From positions 84,196,001 to 84,260,000 of the forward strand of contig OX597823.1 in the NCBI GenBank assembly GCA_951406725.2: a DNA stretch of 64,000 nucleotides. The letters are read 5' to 3'. Source of the DNA: Octopus vulgaris. Lineage: Eukaryota. The position numbers were made by a program, and so were the translations under genes. The notes beneath the pieces were generated by a model, which saw nothing but the letters and a program-made list of their open reading frames with translations, did no database searches and had not been told where the DNA came from. Shown piece by piece: positions 3,139-59,455 of the stretch (positions are counted from its first letter, which is position 1; the number at the start of each line of letters is the position of its first letter).

Positions 3139-3534
3139 CTAGCAGTATCGCCCGGCGTTGCTCGGGTTTGTAAGGGAAATAACTATATAAGCATTTTTAG
3201 AGAGTTATAGCCAAAAAATAGCAAAAAAATGCATTAAAAATTGAAAAAAAATTAAGGTAAATTTTTTTTTAAATCGTTGACACATCGTAAATATTTTTAG
3301 AGAGTTACTTCCCTTATATAAAAGCGAAAAAAATGCATTAAAATGGAAAAATATGATGGTAAATTTTTTTTAAATCGTAGACTCATCGTAGACGCACGCT
3401 AATACCCAGAAGGGCTCGATATGAATCACGACTATAAGATACCCGCTTTTGGTTAAACTGCACCGCAAAATGTGGGAGTAGTTAGGAATCTAAATCGTAG
3501 GAGACAGACACACAACTTCACTCTTATATAAAGA
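3139..3534 (-). mobile_element. Complete 396-bp non-autonomous Helitron
   Basis: Minus strand A|TC 5' end at 3534, subterminal hairpin CCCGAGCAACGCCGGG (3151-3166), CTAG|T 3' end at 3139. No TSD, inserted between A and T. Internal direct repeats. Confidence 0.85.
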
Positions 3535-19673: not shown

Positions 19674-22547
19674 CTGTGATGGTGCTGGTGCCATGTAAAA
19701 AGAACTCAATACACTCTGTAAAAGTGGTTGGTACTTCAAAGGGGACCCAAGCCAAAACAGGTGACTGGAGCCTGGTGCGGCCTTCTGACTTGCCAGCTCT
19801 TGTCAAACCATCCAACCTATGCCAGCATGGAAAACTTGTTAAATGAAGACAAAGATGTATTTAGACATGGTTATAGGTGCAAGCATGCTTGTGTGCTTTA
19901 GAAATTAGCTTCACTACCCTGAGGTTTTGGGGTTCAAGCCTACTAAGTGAAATACATGGAACCTTGGACAAGAGTCTTCTTCTGTAGCTTTGAGCCTTGC
20001 TATTGAATTTGATTGAGAAGAGACATGTGTGTGTGTGTGTGTGCATGTATGTTTGTGTGTATTGTCTTGACATCATATGGAGGTGTGTCACCTTCACACA
20101 AGCAATTTCATTAACTTACAATCTTCTATGAAAACATATCTGGCCACATGCAAATCTTACCAAGCTTGGAAACAGGCTGTAGAAAATCTGCCTCAATTAA
20201 TTCCATCTGACCCATATAAGCAAGGAAAAAGCAGGCATTAAAAATGATAATGATGATGGTTAATTATCGTCGTCGTCATGATTATTTAATGTCCCTTAAG
20301 GCAGAAAGCTGGCAGAATTGTTAGCTCAATGGACACAATGCTTAGCGGTATTTTGTCTGCTGCTACATTCTAAGTTCAAATTTCACCGAGGTCGACTTTG
20401 CCTTTCATCCTTTCAGGGCTGATAAATTTAGTAGCAGTGGAACACTGGGATCAATGTAATCGGCTGGTCCCCTCCCCCAAAATTTCAAGCTTTGTGTCTG
20501 CAGCAGAAAGGATTGTTTAATGTCCCTTTTTTCCATACTAACATGGGTCTGATGGCTTGACAAGTAGAGATAAACCTAAGGGCTCTGCTAGATTCTATGT
20601 CTGCTTTGGTATGGTTTTTTTCCTGCTGGATGCCCTTCCTAATGTCAACCACTTAACAGAGTGTACTGGGTGCTTTTTAATCAGCTCTTTCTCTTTTTCT
20701 AATTATGATTTATAAGAAATCTGATATTTTTCAGAAAAAAAATTTGAAGTAGATCTATTCTGTGCCCCGCTCTTTTTCTTTTAGTATACCAATTTGAGTT
20801 TAATGAGCTGTATTGTATAACTTTTAATTAATTACTGTATTGCTAAGATTATATCTAATTTGGAAGAGAGTATTTGTTCTGCTATCACGTCATCATTATT
20901 GAAATAACTGTGCTGTTTTAAAAGTGAAAATAATCCATTATACTATTGGTGCAGGCATGACTGTGTGCTAAACAATTTGCTTCCCAACCATAAGGTTCGG
21001 TGTTCAGGCTCACTGCGTGGCACCTTGGGCAAGTGTCTTCTACTACAGCCTCAGGCTGACCAAAACCTTGTGAGTGGGTTTGGTAGATGGAAACTGAAAG
21101 AAGCCTGGATGTATATATGTGGGTGTGTGTGTCTTTGTGTCTGTGATTTTTATTCACCCCATCACTGCTTGGCAATCGGTATTGGTGTGTTTACGTCCCT
21201 GTAACTTAGCAGTTCAGCACTAGTGACCGATAGAGTAAGTCCTTGGTTTTAAAAAATAAAAATAAATCATGAGGTTGATTTGTTCGACTAAAACTCAAAG
21301 CAGTGCTGTAGCATGGCTGCAGTCAAATGACTAAAACATGTAAAAGAATTTATACATATATATATATATATATATATATCGCATTGTTTAACGTCCGTTT
21401 TCCATGCTGGCATGGGTTGGACGGTTCGACCGGGGTCTGGGAAGCCAGGAGGCTGCACCAGGCTCCAGTCTGATCTGGTTGTGTTTCTACAGCTGGATGC
21501 CCTTCCTAACGCTAACCACTCTGTGGGTGTGGTGGGTGCTTTTTACGTGCCAGGTGAGGCTCGCAACGGTCACAATCGGTTGGTGCTTTTTACGTGCCTT
21601 GGTGGGATTTGAACTCGCGAAGGGAAAGTAATGATGGCGGCGGTTGTGGTGTTTGTGGTGGTAGTTTAATTATTATACTAAAGCCACCTACTTAATACGG
21701 TAATTATAATGCCTACTTTAAAAAATGTTAATTACATTGATAAATAAATCAACAAATTGATTAATTAATTAATTCTTTACGAAAACAAAATATTTATAAT
21801 GGCTCAACTCCAGGGGGTTTCACATAAAAATATAAAACGCGCCGAAAATCTGTTGAAGAATTTTGTTTAATTAACCAAAAGAAAAAGACACCTAAGAGTT
21901 CTCTCCCTTGCACTTGTTATCTTCAACTTACGACTTGAACATAGCGGCAACTGCTCCGTTTTAAGGGCTGGATTCTTTAGACATTCGTCAAGCTAGAAAA
22001 TTTATGGACAGGGATTTTTTTTTAGTTTTGTCAAAGGCATCAGTTTATCTTGAAAATCTTTCGTGAAAAAAAGAACACTTTATTTTTTGTCTTCTCAACA
22101 TTCGATCGCGCGCGCGCGCGCACACACACACGCACACACGCACACACACGCACACACGCACACACGCACACACACACACACACACACTTCAATGGTTCAT
22201 AACGTGCACGTTTTTTTTTTTTTTTTTGAAAATTGTCCCAGAAACAAATCTACCTTCATTTTATAAGGCTTTTAATTTTGTGTGGATGAGGCAACTGAAT
22301 TACACATCATGTATCTTATTTAGAGTAGTAGCAGATGGTGGGTCAAGAATGGACTTTTCAAAATTGTGGTTTGTCTTTAAAGCGTGTGTGCACCTTCATT
22401 ATCGTTACAATACCCACTCTTCACCCTCCTCTCGTTTTTCTGTAAATTTCAACTATAAATATATATATATATATTTCAATCAAAGATGTTATATAGAAGT
22501 ATGTGTTGGTGCCTGATGTGTGAGTTAGTGAGGTAATAATACTTTTA

Positions 22548-26895: not shown

Positions 26896-27072
26896 AAAGA
26901 AGACTCCAGAAGTCAATCCTCATCAAACTGGCCTATAGTAATTAAAAAAAGTACAAAACAAAAAAAAACCCATTTAATCCTTTTGATACAAACCTGTCTG
27001 GTATCACCCTTGGTTTATGGTACCATCTTCTTATTTTAAAGAGATCAGTTCATCAAACGGTCTTAGAAATAC

Positions 27073-27304
27073 GTATTTCTTTACTACCCACAAGGGGCTA
27101 AGCACAGAGGGGATAAACAAGGACAGATAAATGGATTAAGTCAATTACATCGACCCCAGTGCGTAACTGGTACTTAATTTATCGACCCTGAAAGGATGAA
27201 AAGCAAAGTCTACGTAGGCGGAATTTGAACTCAGAACATAACGGCAGACGAAATACCTCTAAGCATTTTGCCCGGCGTGCTAATGTTTCTGCCAGCTCAC
27301 CACC
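27073..27304 (-). mobile_element. SINE family B with Tx1-type tail
   Basis: Same structure. 9-bp direct repeat TAGAAATAC at 27064-27072 and 27305-27313. Confidence 0.88.
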
Positions 27305-34185: not shown

Positions 34186-34780
34186 TATATTTTACATATA
34201 TTTTTCTGTAATACATACATATGTATATATTGGGACATGCATTTGGTAACTAACTTGGTGCATTAGAACTTGTGGTCCTCCTTCATTTCCTGTTGCTGTA
34301 TAAGAATATTAAAAAGCGAAAGAGAGAGTGTGTAGCTGCTGCCTTCAAAAAGCTGCCATATTTCTCAAGATGTCATCTTATGAACAGTTATCAGGGAAGG
34401 GAGATGTCCATTTGAATTACAATATTAACATGTTGGCAATCAATGTTTGGCAAAGAGAATCATCTGTTATTTGAATATAAGTTTTATCAACTGTCCGGCT
34501 TTCAAGACAATTTTTCTATTTATTCCTTCCTTACACACTTAAGGAAGGAATAAGAGAAAAAAAAAATATTTAGAAAATAAGAAAAAAAAATAGATGCTAC
34601 ACTGCTGGGATTCTCAGAATATTATGGTAAGTGTGTGTGTGTGTGTACTCAATAGCCAAGGGCTGTTGTAGAAAACATTTGCCCAATATTCTGCGTAGAG
34701 GGACCAAACCCGAAACCACTACAAAGTGAACTTCTTAACCACATAGCCATGCCTCCTTCTATTACAGAGTTCTTTATGGA

Positions 34781-34889
34781 ATCTAGGTTCCTCAAGTGGT
34801 CACCCAGTTAAGTACTAACTAGACTGGATGTTGCTTAACTTTGGGGATCAGATAAGAACCGGTGCTTTTGGCATGATATGGTTGTGAGC
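34781..34889 (-). pseudogene. Degenerate 5S rRNA copy (pseudogene or 5S-derived SINE head)
   Basis: Minus strand GCTCACAACCATATCATGCCAAAAGCACCGGTTCTTATCTGATCCCCAAAGTTAAGCAACATCCAGTCTAGTTAGTACTTAACTGGGTGACC is collinear with metazoan 5S rRNA (box A AGTTAAGC, TTAGTACTT, box C TGGGTGACC), with many CpG-type changes and no intact 3' end. Confidence 0.85.
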
Positions 34890-49940: not shown

Positions 49941-50171
49941 TATTTCTTTACTGCCCACAAGGGACTACACACAGAGGAGACAAAGAAGGACAGACAAATG
50001 GATTAAGTCGATTATATTGACCCCAGTGTGTAACTGGTACTTATTTAATCGACCCCGAAACGATGAAAGGCAAAGTCGACCTCGGCGGAATTTGAACTCA
50101 GAACATAGCAGCAGACGAAATACTGCTAAGCATTTCGCCTGGCGTGCTAACGTTTCTGCCAGCTTGTCACC
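49941..50171 (-). mobile_element. SINE family B with Tx1-type tail, nested in a family A SINE
   Basis: tRNA-like head (AGCTGGCAGAAACGTTAGCACGCC...GAGTTCAAATTCC), core GTCGACTTTGCCTTTCATC..GGGGTCGAT..AAGTACCAG. 14-bp TSD TTCTTGTAGTTTCC at 49927-49940 and 50172-50185. Confidence 0.9.
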
Positions 50172-51530
50172 TTCTTGTAGTTTCCATCTACCAAATCCAT
50201 TCACAAGGCTTTAGTTGGCCCAAAGCTATAATAAAAACAAAGTACCACACAGTGGGACTGAACCCGGAACCATGTGGTTGGGAAGCAAGCTTGTTACCAC
50301 ACAACTACACCTGCACCTATATATGTATATACATTTCTTCCTACTCTTAATTTGTGACTGTGAATAATAATAATAATGATAATAATAATAATAATAATAA
50401 AAAAGAGAATAGTGTGGAAATAAGTGACTCACTAGTAATTAAAATCGTTATGGGAAAACATCATTTTGTTTTGGCTGTCTTGTTTTGTAGATTTTGGTTT
50501 ATTTATCATTTAACAGAAAATAATTAAATAAATTTACAAAAATGTTTTTAAATTTTAAAAAGAATTTGCAAAACAAAAAGAAAAGAAAATTCTTCCCTCA
50601 TTGGGTGTTGATTCCTTTTGAGACACTAATGAGATATTGGTGATGATGGAGAGACATTTCCCTGCATCCTGATATCAAGACTCTACTGTAAACACTCGGT
50701 ATTGTTATCTTAAACTCTTTACTCTCTTCTAATTGTTACCATTCTTACCATTCTGTGTTTATTCAGACTGTTTACTGATAAGACATGAGAATCAGCAAAT
50801 ATGATAGCATAACACTTTGGCAAGAATAGAACATGTCGTTTTAATTAAGTCACTTATTGACATTATGGTTAAGATTTCTTTTTTTTTTTTTTTTTTTTTT
50901 AGCATTAACTAAGTCCCCGTTGTGTTTGTAGTCTTCCCTTTGTCTCTACTGAAACTCTTTGTAACAGCAAAAGATAGTTAGATTGATTCACCCCACCAAC
51001 CCATCCCTTCCACCATCTATGTTTACGATCCCCTCCTTTTCTCTCTCTCTCTCTCTCCTTGCACTAGATCCATAAGCAGATATTTCCATTCTGTACTAAT
51101 TATGCTTTTAGTGTTTCTTTCTGCAGAAAATACAGTTAAGCTTGCAATAAAATACACAAGCTTCGATAAGATATTCTTTTCTGAGCCAATGAAGGAGGCT
51201 CTTACATGGCCTCCTAACCTGGTAGAAATAGCTGAGAAAATTTCCTTCACAATACACTTATGCATAGGGATCCTCAACCATTTTCTACCTGCAGAGCAGA
51301 TCCCTTTGATTCCTCTTTTATTCTACTGGACCCCCATAGACATTTGATGTTTTAAAAAACAAATTCCATTATAGGCACAGACGTGGCTGTGTGGTTAGAA
51401 GCTTGCTTCCCAACCTAATGGTTCTGGGTTCGGTCCCACTTAGTGGGACCTTTGGGCAAGTCTCTTCTACTATAGCCTCAGACCAAACCAAAGCTTTGTG
51501 AGTGGATTTGCTTCACAGAAACTGAAAGAA

Positions 51531-51792
51531 ACTATAAAATTGACAGAAACTATAAAGGTGGTGGGTAAGCTGGTAGAAACATTTGCATGCCGGGCGAAAT
51601 GCTTAGTAGTATTTCGCCTGCCGTTATGTTCTGAGTTCAAATTTCACTGAGGTCGACTTTGCCTTTCATCCTTTCAGGGTCGATAAATTAAGTACCAGTT
51701 ATTCACTGGGGTCAATGTAATCGACTTAATTCCTTTGTCTGTCCTTGTTTGTCCCCTCTAAGTTTTATTCCCCTGTGAGCAATAAGGAAATA
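51531..51792 (+). mobile_element. SINE family B with Tx1-type tail, nested in a family A SINE
   Basis: Same structure. 14-bp TSD AGAAACTGAAAGAA at 51517-51530 and 51793-51806. Extra nucleotides at the 5' junction. Confidence 0.88.
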
Positions 51793-53123
51793 AGAAACTG
51801 AAAGAAGCCTTTCTGGATAGATGTGTGTGTGTGTCTTTGTGTGGTTGGTAAGTAAGCTACTTACCACACAGCTACTCCAGTGCCTATATTTAGGAAATTT
51901 TCAAATGTAAACAAACAACTATGAATGACACACAGTTCATGTGATTAGAAATTTAACGTTTAAATTTTAGCTAGTATTGAACGTTAAAATGCTACTAAAG
52001 CATCAAATTTATTTGAAAAAAAATATGTATTATATTTATATAGGTTTATGTGAAGAAGGTAGAAAGACAGATGTAGCTTATTGTGAGTGGTGTAATATAC
52101 AAAAATTATATTGGGAAATGTAAATGAAGATTGATGAATAACATTGGTGTTATTTTGGAATTAAATTAGTTAGGATATAATTTCCGGTGTTTGAAGCAAA
52201 AATATTTTGTATTTAAAATATAAGGTGCAGAAAAACTATATAATACTCACTTACAAAATGTTGCTAAATGCTAGAGAAATTGAAAACGGTTACAAGATAA
52301 ATTCCTTAGGATTGTTTCTAACAATCCCTTACACTAATATTGTTTCCTCAAATTCTGTGTATATATATATATATATATATATACTAGCATTAAAGACCTG
52401 GCGTTGCCGGGTCATAGTGCTAGTGCATGTATATACGTGTATATATATGTGTACATATTACATGTACATCTATATATATACATCTACACATAAAATACAA
52501 AATACAAAGTTATATCTTGATATCACTAGTGATAACAATACTCAAAATATATAACAGACTGCAATTGTTAGCCCGTCTCTTGTAATTTCGATCAATTGTA
52601 TCTTGTCCTCCCTCTTGTATAGAAGTGTGGCTACAATGCAGCCTACCTCTACTTCTGGGGGAAAGGGGGGGGGCATTTAAAATTTTTTTCCGGACGTCCT
52701 ACGTCCCAGATATAAAGGTAAGAATAAAATATTTCCACTTTGCAAGTTCGAGTCGAGTACTCCCTTGCACGCTCCATTGACTCGAACCTTGCTTCTATTG
52801 TGGCAAATTTACCGCCTCTGATTAGATACCTTTCATAGTCCCACCAAGACACTTTTCGAAGGTGCTTTCCTCCATATTGTTTTATTATTACCCACAAGGG
52901 GCGAACACAGATGGGACAATACATTCTGATGATGGGGTCAGACAAACGAATGGGTTTTTACAATAAATCGGGTTTAAAAATTTTCATGAATAACAATAAA
53001 TGGACAAAAATCGAGTGATAGGACAGACCGGAAGACATTACGGGTGGAGTGGGTGCGGGTTTAGCTCGGACCCCACGAGCCCCGCCTCCCCACTGATACT
53101 TTTGGTTGCACTTGGTATTACAT

Positions 53124-56100
53124 TTATGTTGTAACTTTCATTCGCAACTTCCGTGCTACATCCTTCCATCGTTCTTCATACGCTCTCCTAGTCAGGCATA
53201 TTCTCTCCAGCCCTATCTTCCTTTTCAGGTGAAAGATGAAATAATTCATCAAACCAGGGCCGGAGATGAACTTGCCTGACTGTAAACCTTTCATTCTCGT
53301 CTTCCATATCACCTCTTTCGCGATTGCTACTACAACGAGAAAACGAAACTTACCTTCATTCACGAGGAAATCCGGTGGGTCAATTTTTGTAATCGACTCA
53401 GTCGACAGCTGTACTCTTCGTGTACCTGACAACAGGTGTTCGGCATAAACCCACACCTCAGACACGTCCGGACAATGAACAATCGCGTGCGGGACGGTTT
53501 CCCTATCCCGCCCGCATCTTGGACATATCGGACTGTCTTGGCCACCGTGCCTTGCGAGTTTATCCCGAACAGGTAGAGCTCCTCTGTAGCATTGCCATGC
53601 CAGAGACTTCTGGAAGTTGTCCAGTGTCCTTGGCTCGAACGTACGTCGGAACAGACTGGCCAGCTGATTATCGTCGAGACCTAGGGTTTCCCCCAAGGTA
53701 TCTTCACATTCCGCCTCTACCAACCCTCTATAGAAGAAAGTGGTGGAACCCCCACCGCAGGCGTTGCCCGAGCGACGGAATAGCAGGAGAGCCTTGCGAC
53801 ACTCCGTGTACCAAGTACCAAGTTTCGATCTACGATTCAGCCAGGTTTCCCATCCACCGAAACTAGTGAACTTGGGAAACATCAGTTTTGCTAGCGAAGA
53901 CCACACCCGTTCACCATCCAGGTAGAGCCACAGATGTCTTAACCTCAGCGCATGTCTGCGCATCATCAGCCAAGGCATCCCTAGCCCACCCTTTAACGGT
54001 TGTTGACAGCAAGTAGAGCGTTTCACAAGTGGTTTCCCGCCCTTCCACAAGAAGTAGAAGAGCTGTCTTTCCAACTTGATCAACCACGAATCAGGGCAAG
54101 GAACGACGGAAAGGCGGTAGGTGATAACCGATGCGATAAACACATTGGCCACCTCCGCCCTCCCTTTCAGGGATAGCCACCGCCAAGACCAGGTCTTGGC
54201 TACTGCAGCCACCTTGCTCGTTACCTCGCCCCAATTCTTCTCTATTTGGAGGTCTGGACCGAACCAGACCCCTAGCAGTTTAATCGGACCCTCCGTCCAA
54301 CGTCCCACGACGCTGTCAGGAGGCATCGACTTGCCTCTCCAGGTGCCGAGTTGCAAGCCGACTGACTTTTCGCGATTAACTTTTGCTCCTGTCACCGTCT
54401 CGTACACCTCTATGGCCTTGCCTACTTTACATAGGTGGTCCATTTCGGTTACGATGATGGTGATGTCATCCGCGTACGCTGACACTGATTTTCCATTACC
54501 TGGCTGTCTCGGGATGCCGCTCAGTTTTCGCAGTAATGGCTCAAGAGCCATCACGTACAAAAGCGGGGAGAGCGGACACCCTTGACGAACCGAGCGTTTG
54601 ATTTTGAACGGCTTCGACAAGAAGCCGTTCACCCGAACTACCGAGTCGATGTTATCATAAATTTCGATAATCCACCTGAGGAATCCAAGGCTCAGCCCGA
54701 ACTGTGCCAGGGCAGATACCAGGTAACGATGGTCGACCCTATCAAAAGCTTTAGATTGGTCTAAATGGACCAGTGCCCCACCCTTGCCAGAATCACTATT
54801 AAACCCCTCTATAGTGTACCGCATTAGATGGAGATTATCCTGAATGGATCTGCCCGGAACGGCACATGTCTGTGCCCCTCCGATCAGACCATCCGCGACA
54901 CGCGCCAATCTTTTCGATAACACTTTGGCCAAAATCTTCAACTCTGTGTTTAGCAGAGTGATGGGCCTGAAATTATCAATGCACTCCCCCTTGCTCGGGT
55001 CCTTTCTGACGAGAGTCACTACTCCCCGGCGCACAGATCTGGGTATAAGCCCGTTCTGCTGCCAGTTCGCGTAGACCTCCGCCAGTAGGTGCCCGAACAA
55101 GTCTGGCATACTCTTATATAACTCATAGGGTAGACCATCCAAACCCGGCGCCTTGCCCGCGCCGCAGTCCGCCATTGCCTCAACCACCTCCTCAGGCGTG
55201 ATTGGCCCTTCACAGCCCTCCGCATCTCGCCCCGATAAGCGCGGCAGACCGTCGAGTAGGTCCGTAAAGGCCCTCCTCCTATCCAGTCCGCCGCACTCAC
55301 CGAAAAGCTGAGCGAAGTGCTCCTGAAAGGCCTCACACATCTCCTCGGGTTCGTTTATCAACTCACCTTGTTGGTTCGTCAAAGATCGAATCGTGGCATC
55401 GTTACCATGCTGAGCTTCCACCACTCGGGCCCATCTCACGGCGTTGATTCCTTCACATCCCATATGACGGATTCTAGCCCTGACAATGCAGCCCATGTGT
55501 TTGGCCTCGAGGTGCTGGTTTAACACCAGTCTCTTGGCCGCCACCTGAGCCGCAGAGCCAGTTTTCATGGCTTCCTCTAATTCCTTAACTAGAGTAGTTT
55601 CCCTTCTAGCCTCTCTAGCCACTACTCCTATGCTATATCTAATAGACTCAAACTTGATGGCTCGTTTGAGGGCGTACCACCATTTGTTATTAATGATGGT
55701 ACCAGATAGTGCCCTCTGAATTATATTCCTAATCCGGTCTTTGTACTCCTTAATCGCCAAAAGGGACGTATTAAGTTTCCAGTAACCGGATCCTCTATTT
55801 TTAACCTTATCTATGTCAAGCTTACAAGTGACCATTTTATGATCACTGTAGCTGATCGGGTAAAACTGTGGACACTTAGCTATTTTACTGTCTACTTTTC
55901 TAATTAGTATTCTATCTAGATACGACCTGGAAGATCCGTCGCTGTTTGACCATGTCCACAATGGAGCGTTCGGAAATTCCAGCCTATAAGGATCTGCTAG
56001 CTCAAAGCGGCTTAGCAGTTCCATGAAGCCACTGTTGCCTTTTCTATCTGGACACGAGCCAACATAATCTACATCCGCTTTGCAAATTGTGTTAAAGTCT

Positions 56101-56519
56101 CCTAGCACCACTAATGAATGCGAAGTACCAAGAAAGTTTTCTAGTTCACGAAAATAATCACTTTGCCCTGTATGGTTGGGTGCGTAAATTGCAACCAGTC
56201 TGATAACTTTACCATTACTGAACGTCAAATCCATGACGACCAGCCTACCTTCTGGATCTGCAAAAATTAACTTTTTCTCAGAAACCCGGTTTCTTTTTAA
56301 TAGGACCAACACCCCACTCCCGCCTGTAGGACTGCCAGGAGAGAAAAAACTCTCGTAGCCGTCAAACAGCGGGAGTAGACCTCTTGGCCCCTCTAGCCGG
56401 GTTTCTGTAGCAACAATAACATCTAAATTACGCGACCTGATATCATGCAGGAAGCGACCTTGCTTCCAGCCTGCTCCCAGGCCGCGCACATTTAAACAAC
56501 CAACATAAATGTAATCCAT
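53124..56519 (-). CDS. Tx1-type ORF2 polyprotein (AP endonuclease, reverse transcriptase, C-terminal CCHC zinc finger), 1131 aa, uninterrupted
   Basis: APE motifs LNVRGL, ATET, IYAPN, GDFN, YLDRI, SDH. Tx1/L1-typical GYWKLNTSLL. RT motifs KAPGLDGL, FRPITLLNTELKIL, LDQSKAFDRVDH, RQGCPLSPLLY, YADD. Finger CPRC-x8-H-x4-C. Confidence 0.95.
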   Translation of the reverse strand: MDYIYVGCLNVRGLGAGWKQGRFLHDIRSRNLDVIVATETRLEGPRGLLPLFDGYESFFSPGSPTGGSGVLVLLKRNRVSEKKLIFADPEGRLVVMDLTFSNGKVIRLVAIYAPNHTGQSDYFRELENFLGTSHSLVVLGDFNTICKADVDYVGSCPDRKGNSGFMELLSRFELADPYRLEFPNAPLWTWSNSDGSSRSYLDRILIRKVDSKIAKCPQFYPISYSDHKMVTCKLDIDKVKNRGSGYWKLNTSLLAIKEYKDRIRNIIQRALSGTIINNKWWYALKRAIKFESIRYSIGVVAREARRETTLVKELEEAMKTGSAAQVAAKRLVLNQHLEAKHMGCIVRARIRHMGCEGINAVRWARVVEAQHGNDATIRSLTNQQGELINEPEEMCEAFQEHFAQLFGECGGLDRRRAFTDLLDGLPRLSGRDAEGCEGPITPEEVVEAMADCGAGKAPGLDGLPYELYKSMPDLFGHLLAEVYANWQQNGLIPRSVRRGVVTLVRKDPSKGECIDNFRPITLLNTELKILAKVLSKRLARVADGLIGGAQTCAVPGRSIQDNLHLMRYTIEGFNSDSGKGGALVHLDQSKAFDRVDHRYLVSALAQFGLSLGFLRWIIEIYDNIDSVVRVNGFLSKPFKIKRSVRQGCPLSPLLYVMALEPLLRKLSGIPRQPGNGKSVSAYADDITIIVTEMDHLCKVGKAIEVYETVTGAKVNREKSVGLQLGTWRGKSMPPDSVVGRWTEGPIKLLGVWFGPDLQIEKNWGEVTSKVAAVAKTWSWRWLSLKGRAEVANVFIASVITYRLSVVPCPDSWLIKLERQLFYFLWKGGKPLVKRSTCCQQPLKGGLGMPWLMMRRHALRLRHLWLYLDGERVWSSLAKLMFPKFTSFGGWETWLNRRSKLGTWYTECRKALLLFRRSGNACGGGSTTFFYRGLVEAECEDTLGETLGLDDNQLASLFRRTFEPRTLDNFQKSLAWQCYRGALPVRDKLARHGGQDSPICPRCGRDRETVPHAIVHCPDVSEVWVYAEHLLSGTRRVQLSTESITKIDPPDFLVNEGKFRFLVVVAIAKEVIWKTRMKGLQSGKFISGPGLMNYFIFHLKRKIGLERICLTRRAYEERWKDVARKLRMKVTT

Positions 56520-56528
56520 TACTTACCT

Positions 56529-57906
56529 TTATATCAGTGGTTCGGTTTTTTCTTCTTCTTCCTTCTCTTTTTCTGGGCCTCGTGGGGGAGTCTGACGTAG
56601 GCCCTCGAATATATGTGGAGATGTTACATCCAACCTAAGTGGGCCCACGTCATGGAAGAAATCTGACTTTATCCGCCCGTAATCCTTCCGGTCTATTTTG
56701 TAAATTGCAAAGTCATTTTTTTTCTCTACTCTCTTCACATTGGCCATGGCTGCCAACACGTTTCCGAGTCTGCTATTTGATGCTTTTACGGCCATATATG
56801 AGTTTATTGACTCTTTTTTCTTTTTAAAATTACTCTGGGAGGGGTGGTTTCCGTTTTTCTTTTTTTTTTTCCGATAATTTTTGCCCACCCCTCCTCATTT
56901 ATCTTTTCCTCGCTCTTTTTTTCCTCCGCCGCTGGTTCTGCTGTTACCATCACCTCCACACCTTCAGTCTTCCCTTCTGGGCCGTCTGACGCTGCTTCTG
57001 GTGACACATTGTCTTCTTTTCCTTTTGGCTTAGGTGCTTCCTGCGGTTTGGGTTGGGGCTGGCATTCCGCCCTTACATGCCCCTTCTTACCGCAGCCGAA
57101 GCACCTCGGCTTTCTGCCCTCTACGAAGACTGTGACTCTTTCATCTTCGCTTATCCTAAGAGTCTCTGGGATCTCTTCCAGGGTTTGTACTTCTGCTTGT
57201 ATGGCTATTATTATCTTTTGCCCTTTCCAGAATTCTTCTTCTTCTACGGTGGCCTGGAGGATGTTTATTTTTTCCTCCAGGCCTACCATAACTGCTGCCA
57301 CTAGGACTTCGGCATCCGCTTCTGGCGGGATGTTGTTCATAGTGATTTTGGAAGTTCTCTTGCCTTTATACAGGGGTAGGAGAACAATATCCTCCGTTTT
57401 TATGGGTTCCATGGATAGCTTCTTCGCTACCTCCTCTGACGTGAATCTCACCTCCACTGTGCCGTATTTCTTCCCTCGATTGATATACGTAATTTTGTCC
57501 ATTATTGGTTTTAAGCAGTTTTCAATCTTTTTCTCCTCTATTTTTTGGATTGCTCTGTTTGTTATACTGAATGTCTTATAGATTATTCTCCTATTCGAAA
57601 TATCCTCCTGTATTTTGGCGTTTGAAGCCACGGTTACTTCTGTGCCCTCTTTTGACACACAGTCTGCATGTTTTCCCAGGTTGTCCACGTTAATTTTTTT
57701 AATTTTCTTCCCAGCCACTTCAGCGAATTTTTTTGCTGGAGTTGATGCTGGTACTGGTTTTACCATTTTCTTGGGCGACGCCGCCTCTTTTTCTTCGGCG
57801 ACAGCGCCTCTTTTTTTCTTGGCGACAACGCCTCTTTTTTTCTTGGCGACAACGCCGGGTATTCCTCCTCGCTCGTCACGGGTGAATAAGTGATGGGGGA
57901 CTCCAT
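56529..57906 (-). CDS. Tx1-type ORF1 (gag-like nucleic-acid-binding protein), split by two single-base frameshifts in A runs
   Basis: Zinc knuckle CFGCGKKGHVRAEC in ORF 56804..57928. The ATG at 57906 (MESPITYSP...) and the overlapping ORF 56529..56888 each join by a -1 shift, giving ~459 aa that ends 9 nt before the ORF2 ATG. Confidence 0.8.
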
Positions 57907-58699
57907 TTTGAACAAATGGCTTTAACAAGCCTTTGGTAATCTAAATTGATTGTAGTTTTCCCCCACTGAGGGGGGAACACCAACGCGAAGTCTTCGCGCG
58001 AAGGTTGACTTCGTCCGTTAGACAACAATGGACAAAAAAAGGTAGCCCAACAGTATATAATAACAGAGATAAGTAGTATGAGAGCAAAAATATATATCAA
58101 CTTACTAATAACGCAATAAATTGATTTCCGCCATGTGTTCAAATCTTCTTTTTTCTCTACATTTTATACTTTATAGACAATAGTCTTTTCTTTAATTTAA
58201 TTTTCTATTATTCATCTGGACTATTCCATTTCTGCATGCTAATTTTATTTTTAATTTATTCCCATTCATGTGAAACCACTTATTCAAGTTCAAATCATTG
58301 ATGCAATTTTATACCAATTGCTATTTTTACTTTTGTTATGTTACGATTATATTATACTTTAGTTTGATTTTAATTATTACTTACTACATATAATTCAATT
58401 GTTATTATTATTTTTATTGTTAAAGTGAAAGTATCTGACATAAAATAGAGAAACGTTTTTGTTTCACTTTTAACACATAATACTGAAATATTGGAGAAGA
58501 TATGATATTACTATGGACTCGCTCTAGGCAAGAAGTTGAACATTTTTTGCCCATGAAACTACATGGACCCTAAGTAAGGCTTGTGTAAAATTTGAATGGA
58601 ATTGGTTGTGTAGTTCTCAAGTTTTAGGGAAACACACAGACAGACAGACAGACACAGACACACATTCTCAGTTTTATATATATAAAGATATATATATAT

Positions 58700-59124
58700 A
58701 TATAGACACACACATATAGGAGAGGAAAAAATAAGACATAAGGCTAAATTGAAAGTAAATTAGTAAAAATGGGTGTATGAAAAATTAAAAAAGAAAAAAA
58801 AATCAAACAGCTTTCATTGCAAGGTAAATTTTCAAGATTTGGAGGGGGAAATTTTTTTTTAAAATTGAGGAAGGGGAAAATAGAAATTCACAATGTTTTT
58901 TTTTCAAAAAAATAATAATACATATATAGAAAAATTAATAAATAAGTATACCAATACATTGTAGAGTCTTTATGCTTTTGGAGTTCAATATTAGTCCATG
59001 GAAAAACTTCTTTGGAAAAACTTAAAGAGAATAACAAGCCTCATAATGCAAAATTTTTACTTTTCAAAAATTCCAATTCTAAAGGGTTGAAACAAACCCA
59101 AGCAACACTGGGCAATACTGCTAG
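58700..59124 (+). mobile_element. Helitron fragment with recognisable 3' terminus
   Basis: CAAACCCAAGCAACACTGGGCAATACTGCTAG|T at 59093-59125 closely matches the 3' end of the 3139-3534 element. 5' end not identified. Confidence 0.55.
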
Positions 59125-59199
59125 TATATATAGTTCATTGCTAAACCTCGCTAAGATAAATATTTCAATTACCTGAAAATTGGCCATGAAACAATTGTA

Positions 59200-59455
59200 G
59201 GCTTATGTTTTTCATTGTTTGATTTGCCTAATAGTGGTTTTATCTCTAATTTAATATAATATATATATATATGAAGAATAAAAAGTTTTGAATGGTACAA
59301 CAATGCACTATAATACACCTGTTGTAATTTAGTAATATTTCGGAATAAAATTCCTTCTTCAGATATTCTTAGATGGAGTCGCTGCAATAATAGCATTCAA
59401 AACTTTTTATTCTTTACAAACAATACAAAATGCTTCCAGCGAACTACAATACTCT
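59200..59455 (-). mobile_element. Penelope-like LTR fragment with minimal hammerhead core
   Basis: CTGAAGA-A-GGAA(TTTTA)TTCC-GAAATATT at 59362-59333. Motif TTAGAGATAAAACCACTATTA also at ~5248-5269(-) and 5586-5607(+). Confidence 0.5.

What the first reader, a model, noticed from the sequence alone, without database searches (positions are those of the whole stretch)
52384..58688. Near-complete Tx1 retrotransposon enclosed by Helitron termini
Seen: a Helitron 3' end (hairpin + CTAG|T, 52384) and 5' end (A|TC, 58688) on the same strand bracket the ~5.2-kb Tx1, and I find no perfect TSD around the LINE. Known: Xenopus Tx1L inserts specifically into the DNA transposon Tx1D, and Helitrons capture cargo. 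Inference: either Tx1 targeting of a Helitron family, or a composite able to spread the LINE by rolling-circle transposition.
Basis: partly seen in the sequence, partly recalled or inferred. Interest (0 to 1): 0.7.

Follow-up and report, generated by a model that had tools for sequence, protein, structure and literature searches.

The report
Octopus LINE nested inside Helitron cargo
A nearly intact 5.2-kb copy-and-paste retrotransposon sits, with its own near-perfect 10-base target duplication, in the middle of a decayed gene fragment of an older relative that lies between two rolling-circle-transposon-like ends, which is likely ordinary three-layer nesting rather than a new hybrid mobile element.

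Summary
The parts are real. On the minus strand there is a Helitron-like 5' end (A|TC, 58688) and 3' end (19-nt hairpin, CTAG|T, 52384) around a 5,249-bp L1-group LINE with an intact ORF2. The closest named ORF1 relatives are Octopus proteins. (1) The LINE has a 10-bp target-site duplication with one mismatch (58125-58134 / 52866-52875). (2) It did not land in Helitron terminal sequence: it splits a decayed ORF1 fragment of another L1/Tx1-like family, which runs on in register across the junction. The best of 610 tested breakpoints fall within 3 nt of the duplication. So the LINE most likely arrived by its own retrotransposition into a roughly 1.05-kb non-autonomous Helitron that already held a LINE fragment. 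One copy cannot show targeting or joint mobility, and no genome or read data were obtained. Tx1 families that prefer DNA transposons are known (piggyBac, Mariner, Harbinger); I found no report of a Helitron target in my searches. Side lead: the LINE's 3' tail matches the tails of 3 of 3 SINE copies in the window that keep a tail.

The parts
58689..58704 (.). Host (TA)n run outside the Helitron-like 5' end
   Evidence: sequence
58425..58688 (-). Helitron-like 5' terminal segment: TC start, AT-rich leader, (GTCT)n tract; inner boundary approximate
   Evidence: (resembles the 5' end of the 3139-3534 element; 4 of 1000 shuffles as good)
58197..58424 (-). AT-rich stretch, unassigned
   Evidence: no convincing ORF1 match
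58135..58196 (-). Decayed ORF1 of an older L1/Tx1-like family, upstream half
   Evidence: found without any joining as best blastx hit of this flank, P0197 71-89, 58% over 19 aa, E 0.033 among 152 proteins
58125..58134 (-). Target-site duplication, copy at the LINE 5' end (ATGGCGGAAA)
52876..58124 (-). Younger L1-group (Tx1-like) LINE, 5,249 bp, apparently full length
56529..57912 (-). ORF1 with CCHC knuckle; frame changes near 57790-57805 and 56840-56870, both at A-runs (decay or assembly error)
53124..56519 (-). ORF2, 1131 aa from Met, uninterrupted: APE endonuclease, reverse transcriptase, zf-RVT
   Evidence: RVT_1 E 1.4e-30, Exo_endo_phos 1.5e-13, zf-RVT 1.4e-8; human L1 ORF2p E 1e-64
52876..53123 (-). 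3' UTR ending in a short TAA/A-rich tail; 52880-52919 resembles the tails of the window's SINE
52866..52875 (-). Target-site duplication, copy at the LINE 3' end (ATGGAGGAAA); also the first codons of the remnant's downstream half
52581..52865 (-). Decayed ORF1 of the older family, downstream half
   Evidence: blastx E 8e-11 to P0047; E 1e-11 to P0198
52414..52580 (-). AT-rich and microsatellite-like stretch, unassigned
52384..52413 (-). Helitron-like 3' end: 19-nt hairpin 11 nt from the end, CTAG|T
   Evidence: resembles the 3' end of the 3139-3534 element; 0 of 1000 shuffles as good
52360..52383 (.). Host (TA)12 run outside the Helitron-like 3' end
   Evidence: sequence

Best explanation
A 5,249-bp L1/Tx1-like LINE flanked by a 9-of-10 direct repeat splits a decayed ORF1 fragment of an older LINE family that lies between two Helitron-like ends, likely because it retrotransposed by chance into a roughly 1.05-kb non-autonomous Helitron that already held that fragment. 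Order of events: (1) a non-autonomous Helitron with about 0.36 kb of old ORF1 inside (captured by read-through or filler repair, or left over from an older insertion; inferred) sat in a (TA)n run; (2) the fragment decayed (shown: 2 stops, 3 frame changes, 36% identity to the octopus protein P0046); (3) the younger LINE inserted by target-primed reverse transcription and duplicated 10 bp (duplication and interruption shown, mechanism inferred from established L1 biology). The 6.3-kb unit would be a possible substrate for a RepHel transposase in trans, but nothing shows that it has moved.
For: Duplication at both LINE boundaries: this 10-mer occurs with at most 1 mismatch at 7 of 127,980 window positions, the two copies included; about 4e-4 expected within 11 positions of the predicted breakpoint. 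Remnant continuity: with a profile of four ORF1 relatives the upstream half scores above 300 of 300 and 300 of 300 shuffles and 2372 of 2372 other window sites, and the top three of 610 breakpoints are 58137, 58134, 58135. With a profile that leaves out the window's own ORF1 (47 rows): 0 of 500, 0 of 500, 0 of 2372, same top three breakpoints. Spacing from IKEK to CL is 30 residues in the remnant, P0046 and P0197. Remnant scores 101 against 18-27 for 15 shuffles; no ORF2 piece in the empty-site model. The ends match both ends of a compact 396-bp element at 3139-3534. The ends are 1,046 nt apart once the LINE is removed, about 0.02-0.03 by chance at the window's density of such 5' ends. No other GC-rich hairpin plus CTRR|T lies between them. 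O. vulgaris has 80 L1-Tx1 families (56 Mb) and 84 Helitron families (28.6 Mb, 1.02%), with 421 recent L1-Tx1 insertions (PMC13282606, passages and supplement rows), so chance nesting is expected.
Against: Single copy; no genome, no reads. The duplication has one mismatch in an element whose ORF2 is intact. The upstream half of the remnant is only about 20 codons and includes a stop and a frame change; weaker nulls were seen with narrower profiles (2 of 120 shuffles; 5 of 300 for the octopus-only profile; 4 and 7 of 300 and 18 of 2372 sites for P0051 alone, whose best breakpoint was elsewhere, at 58409). The pairing estimate uses patterns written after the fact and rises to 0.14-0.18 at the present 6.3-kb distance. 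The target does not read like the TTTT/AA site of mammalian L1 (recalled), which leaves room for sequence preference. The microsatellite-like stretch next to the 3' hairpin looks like ordinary host DNA.
Confidence: 0.6

Rival explanations
1. The two Helitron-like ends are separate insertions (an orphan 5' part and an orphan 3' end) that happen to bracket host DNA holding an old LINE remnant; the LINE inserted into that remnant and no single Helitron ever existed.
For: About 0.75 kb of the 1.05-kb empty-site model is LINE remnant, AT-rich or microsatellite-like DNA. Two of the 4 matching 5' ends in the window have no matching 3' end by my pattern. Both ends lie in (TA)n runs, which are common (80 runs).
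Against: Same strand, correct order, 1,046 nt apart before the LINE, no competing terminator between them, and both resemble the paired ends of the 3139-3534 element.
Confidence: 0.2
2. The LINE family is sequence-specific and its target is this ORF1 segment, either in copies of the older LINE family or in Helitron-borne copies of the fragment.
For: Tx1 families often prefer other mobile elements: Tx1D (piggyBac), Mariner-N4_AMi, Harbinger, LTR elements (PMC4494074, passages and section 15). The tree places the RT loosely with a coral protein named TX1 (support 89). Three O. vulgaris gene models on three contigs join the N-terminus of a related ORF1 to the same HTH-containing, transposase-like sequence, a possible sign of recurrent nesting by a sister family.
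Against: One insertion only. Tx1 clade membership is not established against curated references. The SINE that shares the LINE's tail is dispersed in the window, with no ORF1 remnant found near its copies.
Confidence: 0.13
3. The whole 6.3-kb unit was copied here by rolling-circle transposition from another locus, so the Helitron spreads a full-length LINE.
For: Both ends are intact and sit at an A|T junction in a (TA)n run. Helraiser needs the 5' end, uses the hairpin as terminator and can carry extra DNA; its consensus is 5,296 bp (PMC4778049, passages).
Against: No second composite is known; the duplication shows the LINE entered by its own route, and nothing more is needed to explain one locus.
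Confidence: 0.07

Closest known systems
Tx1-clade LINEs that prefer DNA transposons: Xenopus Tx1 in Tx1D (piggyBac), crocodilian Tx1-Mar in Mariner-N4_AMi, Tx1-9_AMi in Harbinger (PMC4494074; passages and section 15 read)
   Same: Two-ORF APE-type LINE lying inside a non-autonomous DNA transposon, with a duplication; a SINE may share its machinery.
   Different: Those are family-wide preferences shown over many copies. Here there is one copy, the host element is Helitron-like, and the bases actually hit belong to an old LINE ORF1 fragment.
Non-autonomous Helitrons with acquired internal DNA (Helraiser model, PMC4778049; insect Hel1, PMC6544945; maize nested Helitrons, PMC3288121; passages read)
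   Same: 5' TC, 3' CTAG, a 19-nt palindrome 11 nt from the end (as in Helraiser), A|T junctions, no coding capacity, foreign DNA inside.
   Different: Family status (joined ends in many copies, empty sites) is untested; the inner DNA is a retroelement fragment later hit by a second retroelement.
Human LINE-1 ORF2p (PDB 8sxt and others)
   Same: APE-RT layout, E 1e-64 over residues 3-865, against E 5e-26 for the best R2 protein.
   Different: Different ORF1 (CCHC knuckle), no long poly(A), target unlike TTTT/AA (recalled consensus).

Membership tests
Non-autonomous Helitron (TC...CTRR type) | 5' TC after a host A | tested here: met
   58688; weak alone because it lies in a (TA)n run
Non-autonomous Helitron (TC...CTRR type) | 3' CTRR before a host T, with a 16-20-nt hairpin about 11 nt upstream | tested here: met
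Non-autonomous Helitron (TC...CTRR type) | No target duplication at the outer ends | tested here: inconclusive
   both flanks are (TA)n, so a short duplication could not be seen
Non-autonomous Helitron (TC...CTRR type) | Both ends joined in multiple copies; empty A|T sites | not testable with these tools
   no genome held; no read data obtained; collection scans found no octopus copies
Autonomous Helitron | RepHel transposase | tested here: not met
   the only long frames are the LINE's; the empty-site model is 1,046 nt
Helentron / DINE-1 type (PMC4067079, passages) | Insertion at TT, with T-rich ends | tested here: not met
   A|TC and CTAG|T junctions
Helentron / DINE-1 type (PMC4067079, passages) | Subterminal inverted repeats | tested here: inconclusive
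   only (TA)n-based pairs between the ends among the 25 longest of 240 inverted pairs shown
L1 group non-LTR retrotransposon | ORF2 with N-terminal APE, RT and C-terminal zinc motif | tested here: met
L1 group non-LTR retrotransposon | Upstream ORF1 and a target-site duplication | tested here: met
   ORF1 with CCHC (E 0.058 alone; 5 of 5 alignment members at E up to 1, best 6e-5); duplication 9 of 10
Tx1 clade | RT groups with curated Tx1 elements | tested here: inconclusive
   quick tree of 37 rows (8 of 44 hits left out for short RT coverage): a 7-row group with a coral protein named TX1, support 89, unstarred; no curated Tx1 in the set. ORF1 features near ZCCHC3-type RNA-binding clusters at 0.90, a lead only
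Tx1 clade | Target preference (over 20% of flanks in one repeat, PMC4494074) | not testable with these tools
   one copy only

The most novel reading that the evidence does not exclude
An octopus Tx1 family homes in on a piece of an older LINE's ORF1 that a Helitron family has captured and multiplied, so the Helitron breeds landing sites, can copy the loaded 6.3-kb unit by rolling circle, and the same LINE family drives the genome's common SINE.
Probability: 0.08. Interest if true: 0.6.

Novelty: new member of a known kind. Interest (0 to 1): 0.22.

Why it matters
As read here it is a clean, datable three-layer nest and little more. If the family proved target-specific, it would add a Helitron-borne LINE fragment to the list of Tx1 targets and give an APE endonuclease with a defined site. 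If composites recur, it would show a DNA route for multiplying full-length LINEs. The shared SINE tail names a testable candidate partner for an abundant octopus SINE; I did not find such a partner named in two searches or in the passages read, but Repbase and Dfam entries and subscription papers were not searchable.

Tried and rejected
No whole genome is held. Laying reads gave no result, so copy number, empty alleles and junctions stay open. The run search listed 24 rows, 20 holding part of 51500-59400, 11 holding half or more of its words, in 9 studies; no RNA holder listed. The LINE is 66% of that stretch, so the larger shares must include LINE words, but unlaid shares cannot tell which copies. 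Metagenome scan with ORF2: 1 distant locus of 71 candidate stretches, 25% identity. A 25-nt pattern from the 5' segment: 0 hits in prokaryote genomes. A 15-nt pattern: 70 viral loci; the best blastn match was 44 nt at 82% and the 5 loci inspected had unrelated context, taken as chance. No further copy of the LINE, the remnant or the 5' segment in the window. Rfam: 1 hit in the window, a 5S-like piece far away; no tRNA genes. The idea that 58124-57910 is a second LINE's 3' tail was rejected: 71 of 1000 shuffles scored as well against the 3' UTR, 97-650 of 1000 against SINE tails. No special RNA fold in the shared tail (z -0.59 and -1.0). Profile comparison of ORF1 with the fish protein P0007 was weak (probability 2.3%). 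The careful tree did not finish; the quick tree is used. Look-ups of earlier findings by place and sequence were blank. Literature searches gave no listing that reports a Tx1 family targeting Helitrons or a Helitron spreading a full LINE; only listings and the named passages were seen.

Full report
Source. The closest named relatives of ORF1 are Octopus proteins: O. sinensis P0045, 93% over half of the query, and P0046, 66%; O. vulgaris P0047, 65%. The window is therefore octopus DNA by inference. No whole genome is held and no read data were obtained, so everything below rests on one locus plus protein relatives.

The ends. On the minus strand 58688 begins TC after an A, followed by an AT-rich leader and a (GTCT)n tract. 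At the other side a 19-nt imperfect palindrome (52413-52395) ends 11 nt before the terminal CTAG|T at 52384. That is the spacing given for Helraiser (PMC4778049, passages). The 51-nt end folds better than 200 of 200 shuffles. A broader scan for GC-rich hairpins before CTRR|T gave 7 hits in the window against 0-4 in 6 shuffles, so the generic motif alone is only mildly special. More telling is a compact 396-bp element at 3139-3534 with the same kind of ends: its 3' end matches ours better than 1000 of 1000 shuffles and its 5' end better than 996 of 1000, while the sequences diverge further in. It also fixes the orientation, since our palindrome has a CTAG on both strands. The window has 2 such 3' ends and 4 such 5' ends. 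Both outer junctions lie in (TA)n runs.

The LINE. ORF2 is open for 1131 aa from the Met at 56519 and carries APE, RT and zf-RVT domains. Its best solved relative is human L1 ORF2p (E 1e-64; R2 proteins 5e-26 or weaker). ORF1 matches P0046 in three frames, with changes near 57800 and 56850 at A-runs. A quick RT tree of 37 rows puts it in a 7-row group with a coral protein named TX1 at support 89, without curated references. L1 group is met; Tx1 clade is plausible but not shown.

Directly after the LINE's short tail lies a frameshifted piece similar to ORF1 but from another family (blastx E 8e-11 to P0047; E 1e-11 to P0198). A 10-bp repeat with one mismatch lies at 52866-52875 and 58125-58134. 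Removing the LINE and one copy of that repeat gives a 1,046-nt element in which the old ORF1 aligns from 58196 across the junction to 52581: 44 identities in 122 columns to P0046, 2 stops, 3 frame changes, score 101 against 18-27 for 15 shuffles, and no ORF2 piece. The upstream half was tested on its own. With the four-sequence profile it beat 300 of 300 shuffles of each of two kinds and 2372 of 2372 other sites, and the best of 610 breakpoints were 58137, 58134 and 58135. A profile of 47 rows without the window's ORF1 gave 0 of 500, 0 of 500, 0 of 2372 and the same three breakpoints. Narrower profiles were weaker: 2 of 120 shuffles, 5 of 300, and for P0051 alone 4 and 7 of 300, 18 of 2372 sites, with a best breakpoint elsewhere. 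Unjoined, the 5' flank's best hit among 152 relatives is the expected segment of P0197 (58% over 19 aa, E 0.033). So two independent lines, the repeat and the reading frame, give the same boundary. The chance of such a repeat within 11 positions is about 4e-4.

Mechanism. Shown: the duplication, the interrupted remnant, its decay, the two ends. Inferred: the LINE entered by target-primed reverse transcription, after the remnant was in place. Inferred with less certainty: the two ends are one non-autonomous Helitron (1,046 nt apart before the LINE, about 0.02-0.03 by chance from patterns written after the fact; no competing terminator between them). An ORF1-only fragment without ORF2 or tail is not what 5'-truncating retrotransposition leaves (established L1 biology, recalled), which fits capture by the Helitron or later deletion. 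Capture of internal DNA is described for insect and maize Helitrons (PMC6544945, PMC3288121; passages). With 80 L1-Tx1 families and about 1% of the O. vulgaris genome in Helitrons (PMC13282606; passages and two supplement rows), chance nesting needs no special cause. I put this at 0.6, unrelated ends at 0.2, targeting at 0.13 and joint mobility at 0.07.

Comparison. Tx1 preference for other mobile elements is known: Tx1D, Mariner-N4_AMi, Harbinger and LTR elements (PMC4494074; passages and section 15; its supplements not seen), and transposons are listed among targets in PMC4640811 (passages). That paper also tested hitchhiking against independent insertion using truncated copies, which is the test needed here. 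Searches listed nothing on a Helitron target or on Helitrons spreading full LINEs; the library lacks Repbase reports and most subscription papers. Two earlier scan notes from other genomes describe LINEs hitting fixed sites in other LINEs; they are unchecked leads.

Side lead. The LINE's last 40 nt before the tail match the 3' tails of the window's common SINE: 83% over 41 nt, E 5e-6 in the window, and the only non-SINE hit; 0 of 1000 shuffles for each of the 3 copies that keep a tail, of 13 hits to the SINE. Shared tails are the usual sign of a SINE-LINE partnership (PMC4824008, passages). That this repeat is a SINE rests on its look and on recall, not on a library hit.

Verdict. Real, well-resolved nest; new member of known kinds; interest 0.22. 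The novel reading needs other copies and is not excluded.

Noticed in passing
window 52880-52919 against 27072-27130, 49941-49997, 51735-51792: The LINE's 3' end matches the 3' tail of the window's common SINE-like repeat (83% over 41 nt; 0 of 1000 shuffles for each of 3 copies); candidate SINE-LINE partnership.
   Followed up: partly
window 3139-3534, minus strand: Complete 396-bp non-autonomous Helitron-like element with TC start, short GTCT tract, hairpin and CTAG|T; same end style as the finding.
   Followed up: partly
window 3887 (+) and 4735 (-): Two more Helitron-like 5' ends facing each other, with no matching 3' end by my pattern.
   Followed up: no
proteins P0052, P0053, P0054 (O. 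vulgaris gene models, three contigs): All three join the first about 34 residues of a related ORF1 model (P0047) to the same HTH-containing, transposase-like sequence; could reflect recurrent nesting of a sister LINE family with a Tc1/mariner-like element, or a gene-model artefact.
   Followed up: partly
window 57945-58000, minus strand: Two adjacent GC-rich hairpins in the LINE's 5' leader (z -2.91, 2 of 200 shuffles); possible promoter or RNA signal.
   Followed up: partly
window 57766-57860: Three to four tandem 23-24-bp units in the 5' part of ORF1, next to a frame change.
   Followed up: no
window 34780-34880, minus strand: 5S rRNA-like piece above Rfam's threshold (47.4 bits); pseudogene or head of a 5S-derived SINE.
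   Followed up: no
window near 21473 (+), 32165 (-), 33360 (-): Three copies of a repeat with a GC-rich hairpin that tripped the Helitron 3'-end scan; likely another interspersed repeat.
   Followed up: no
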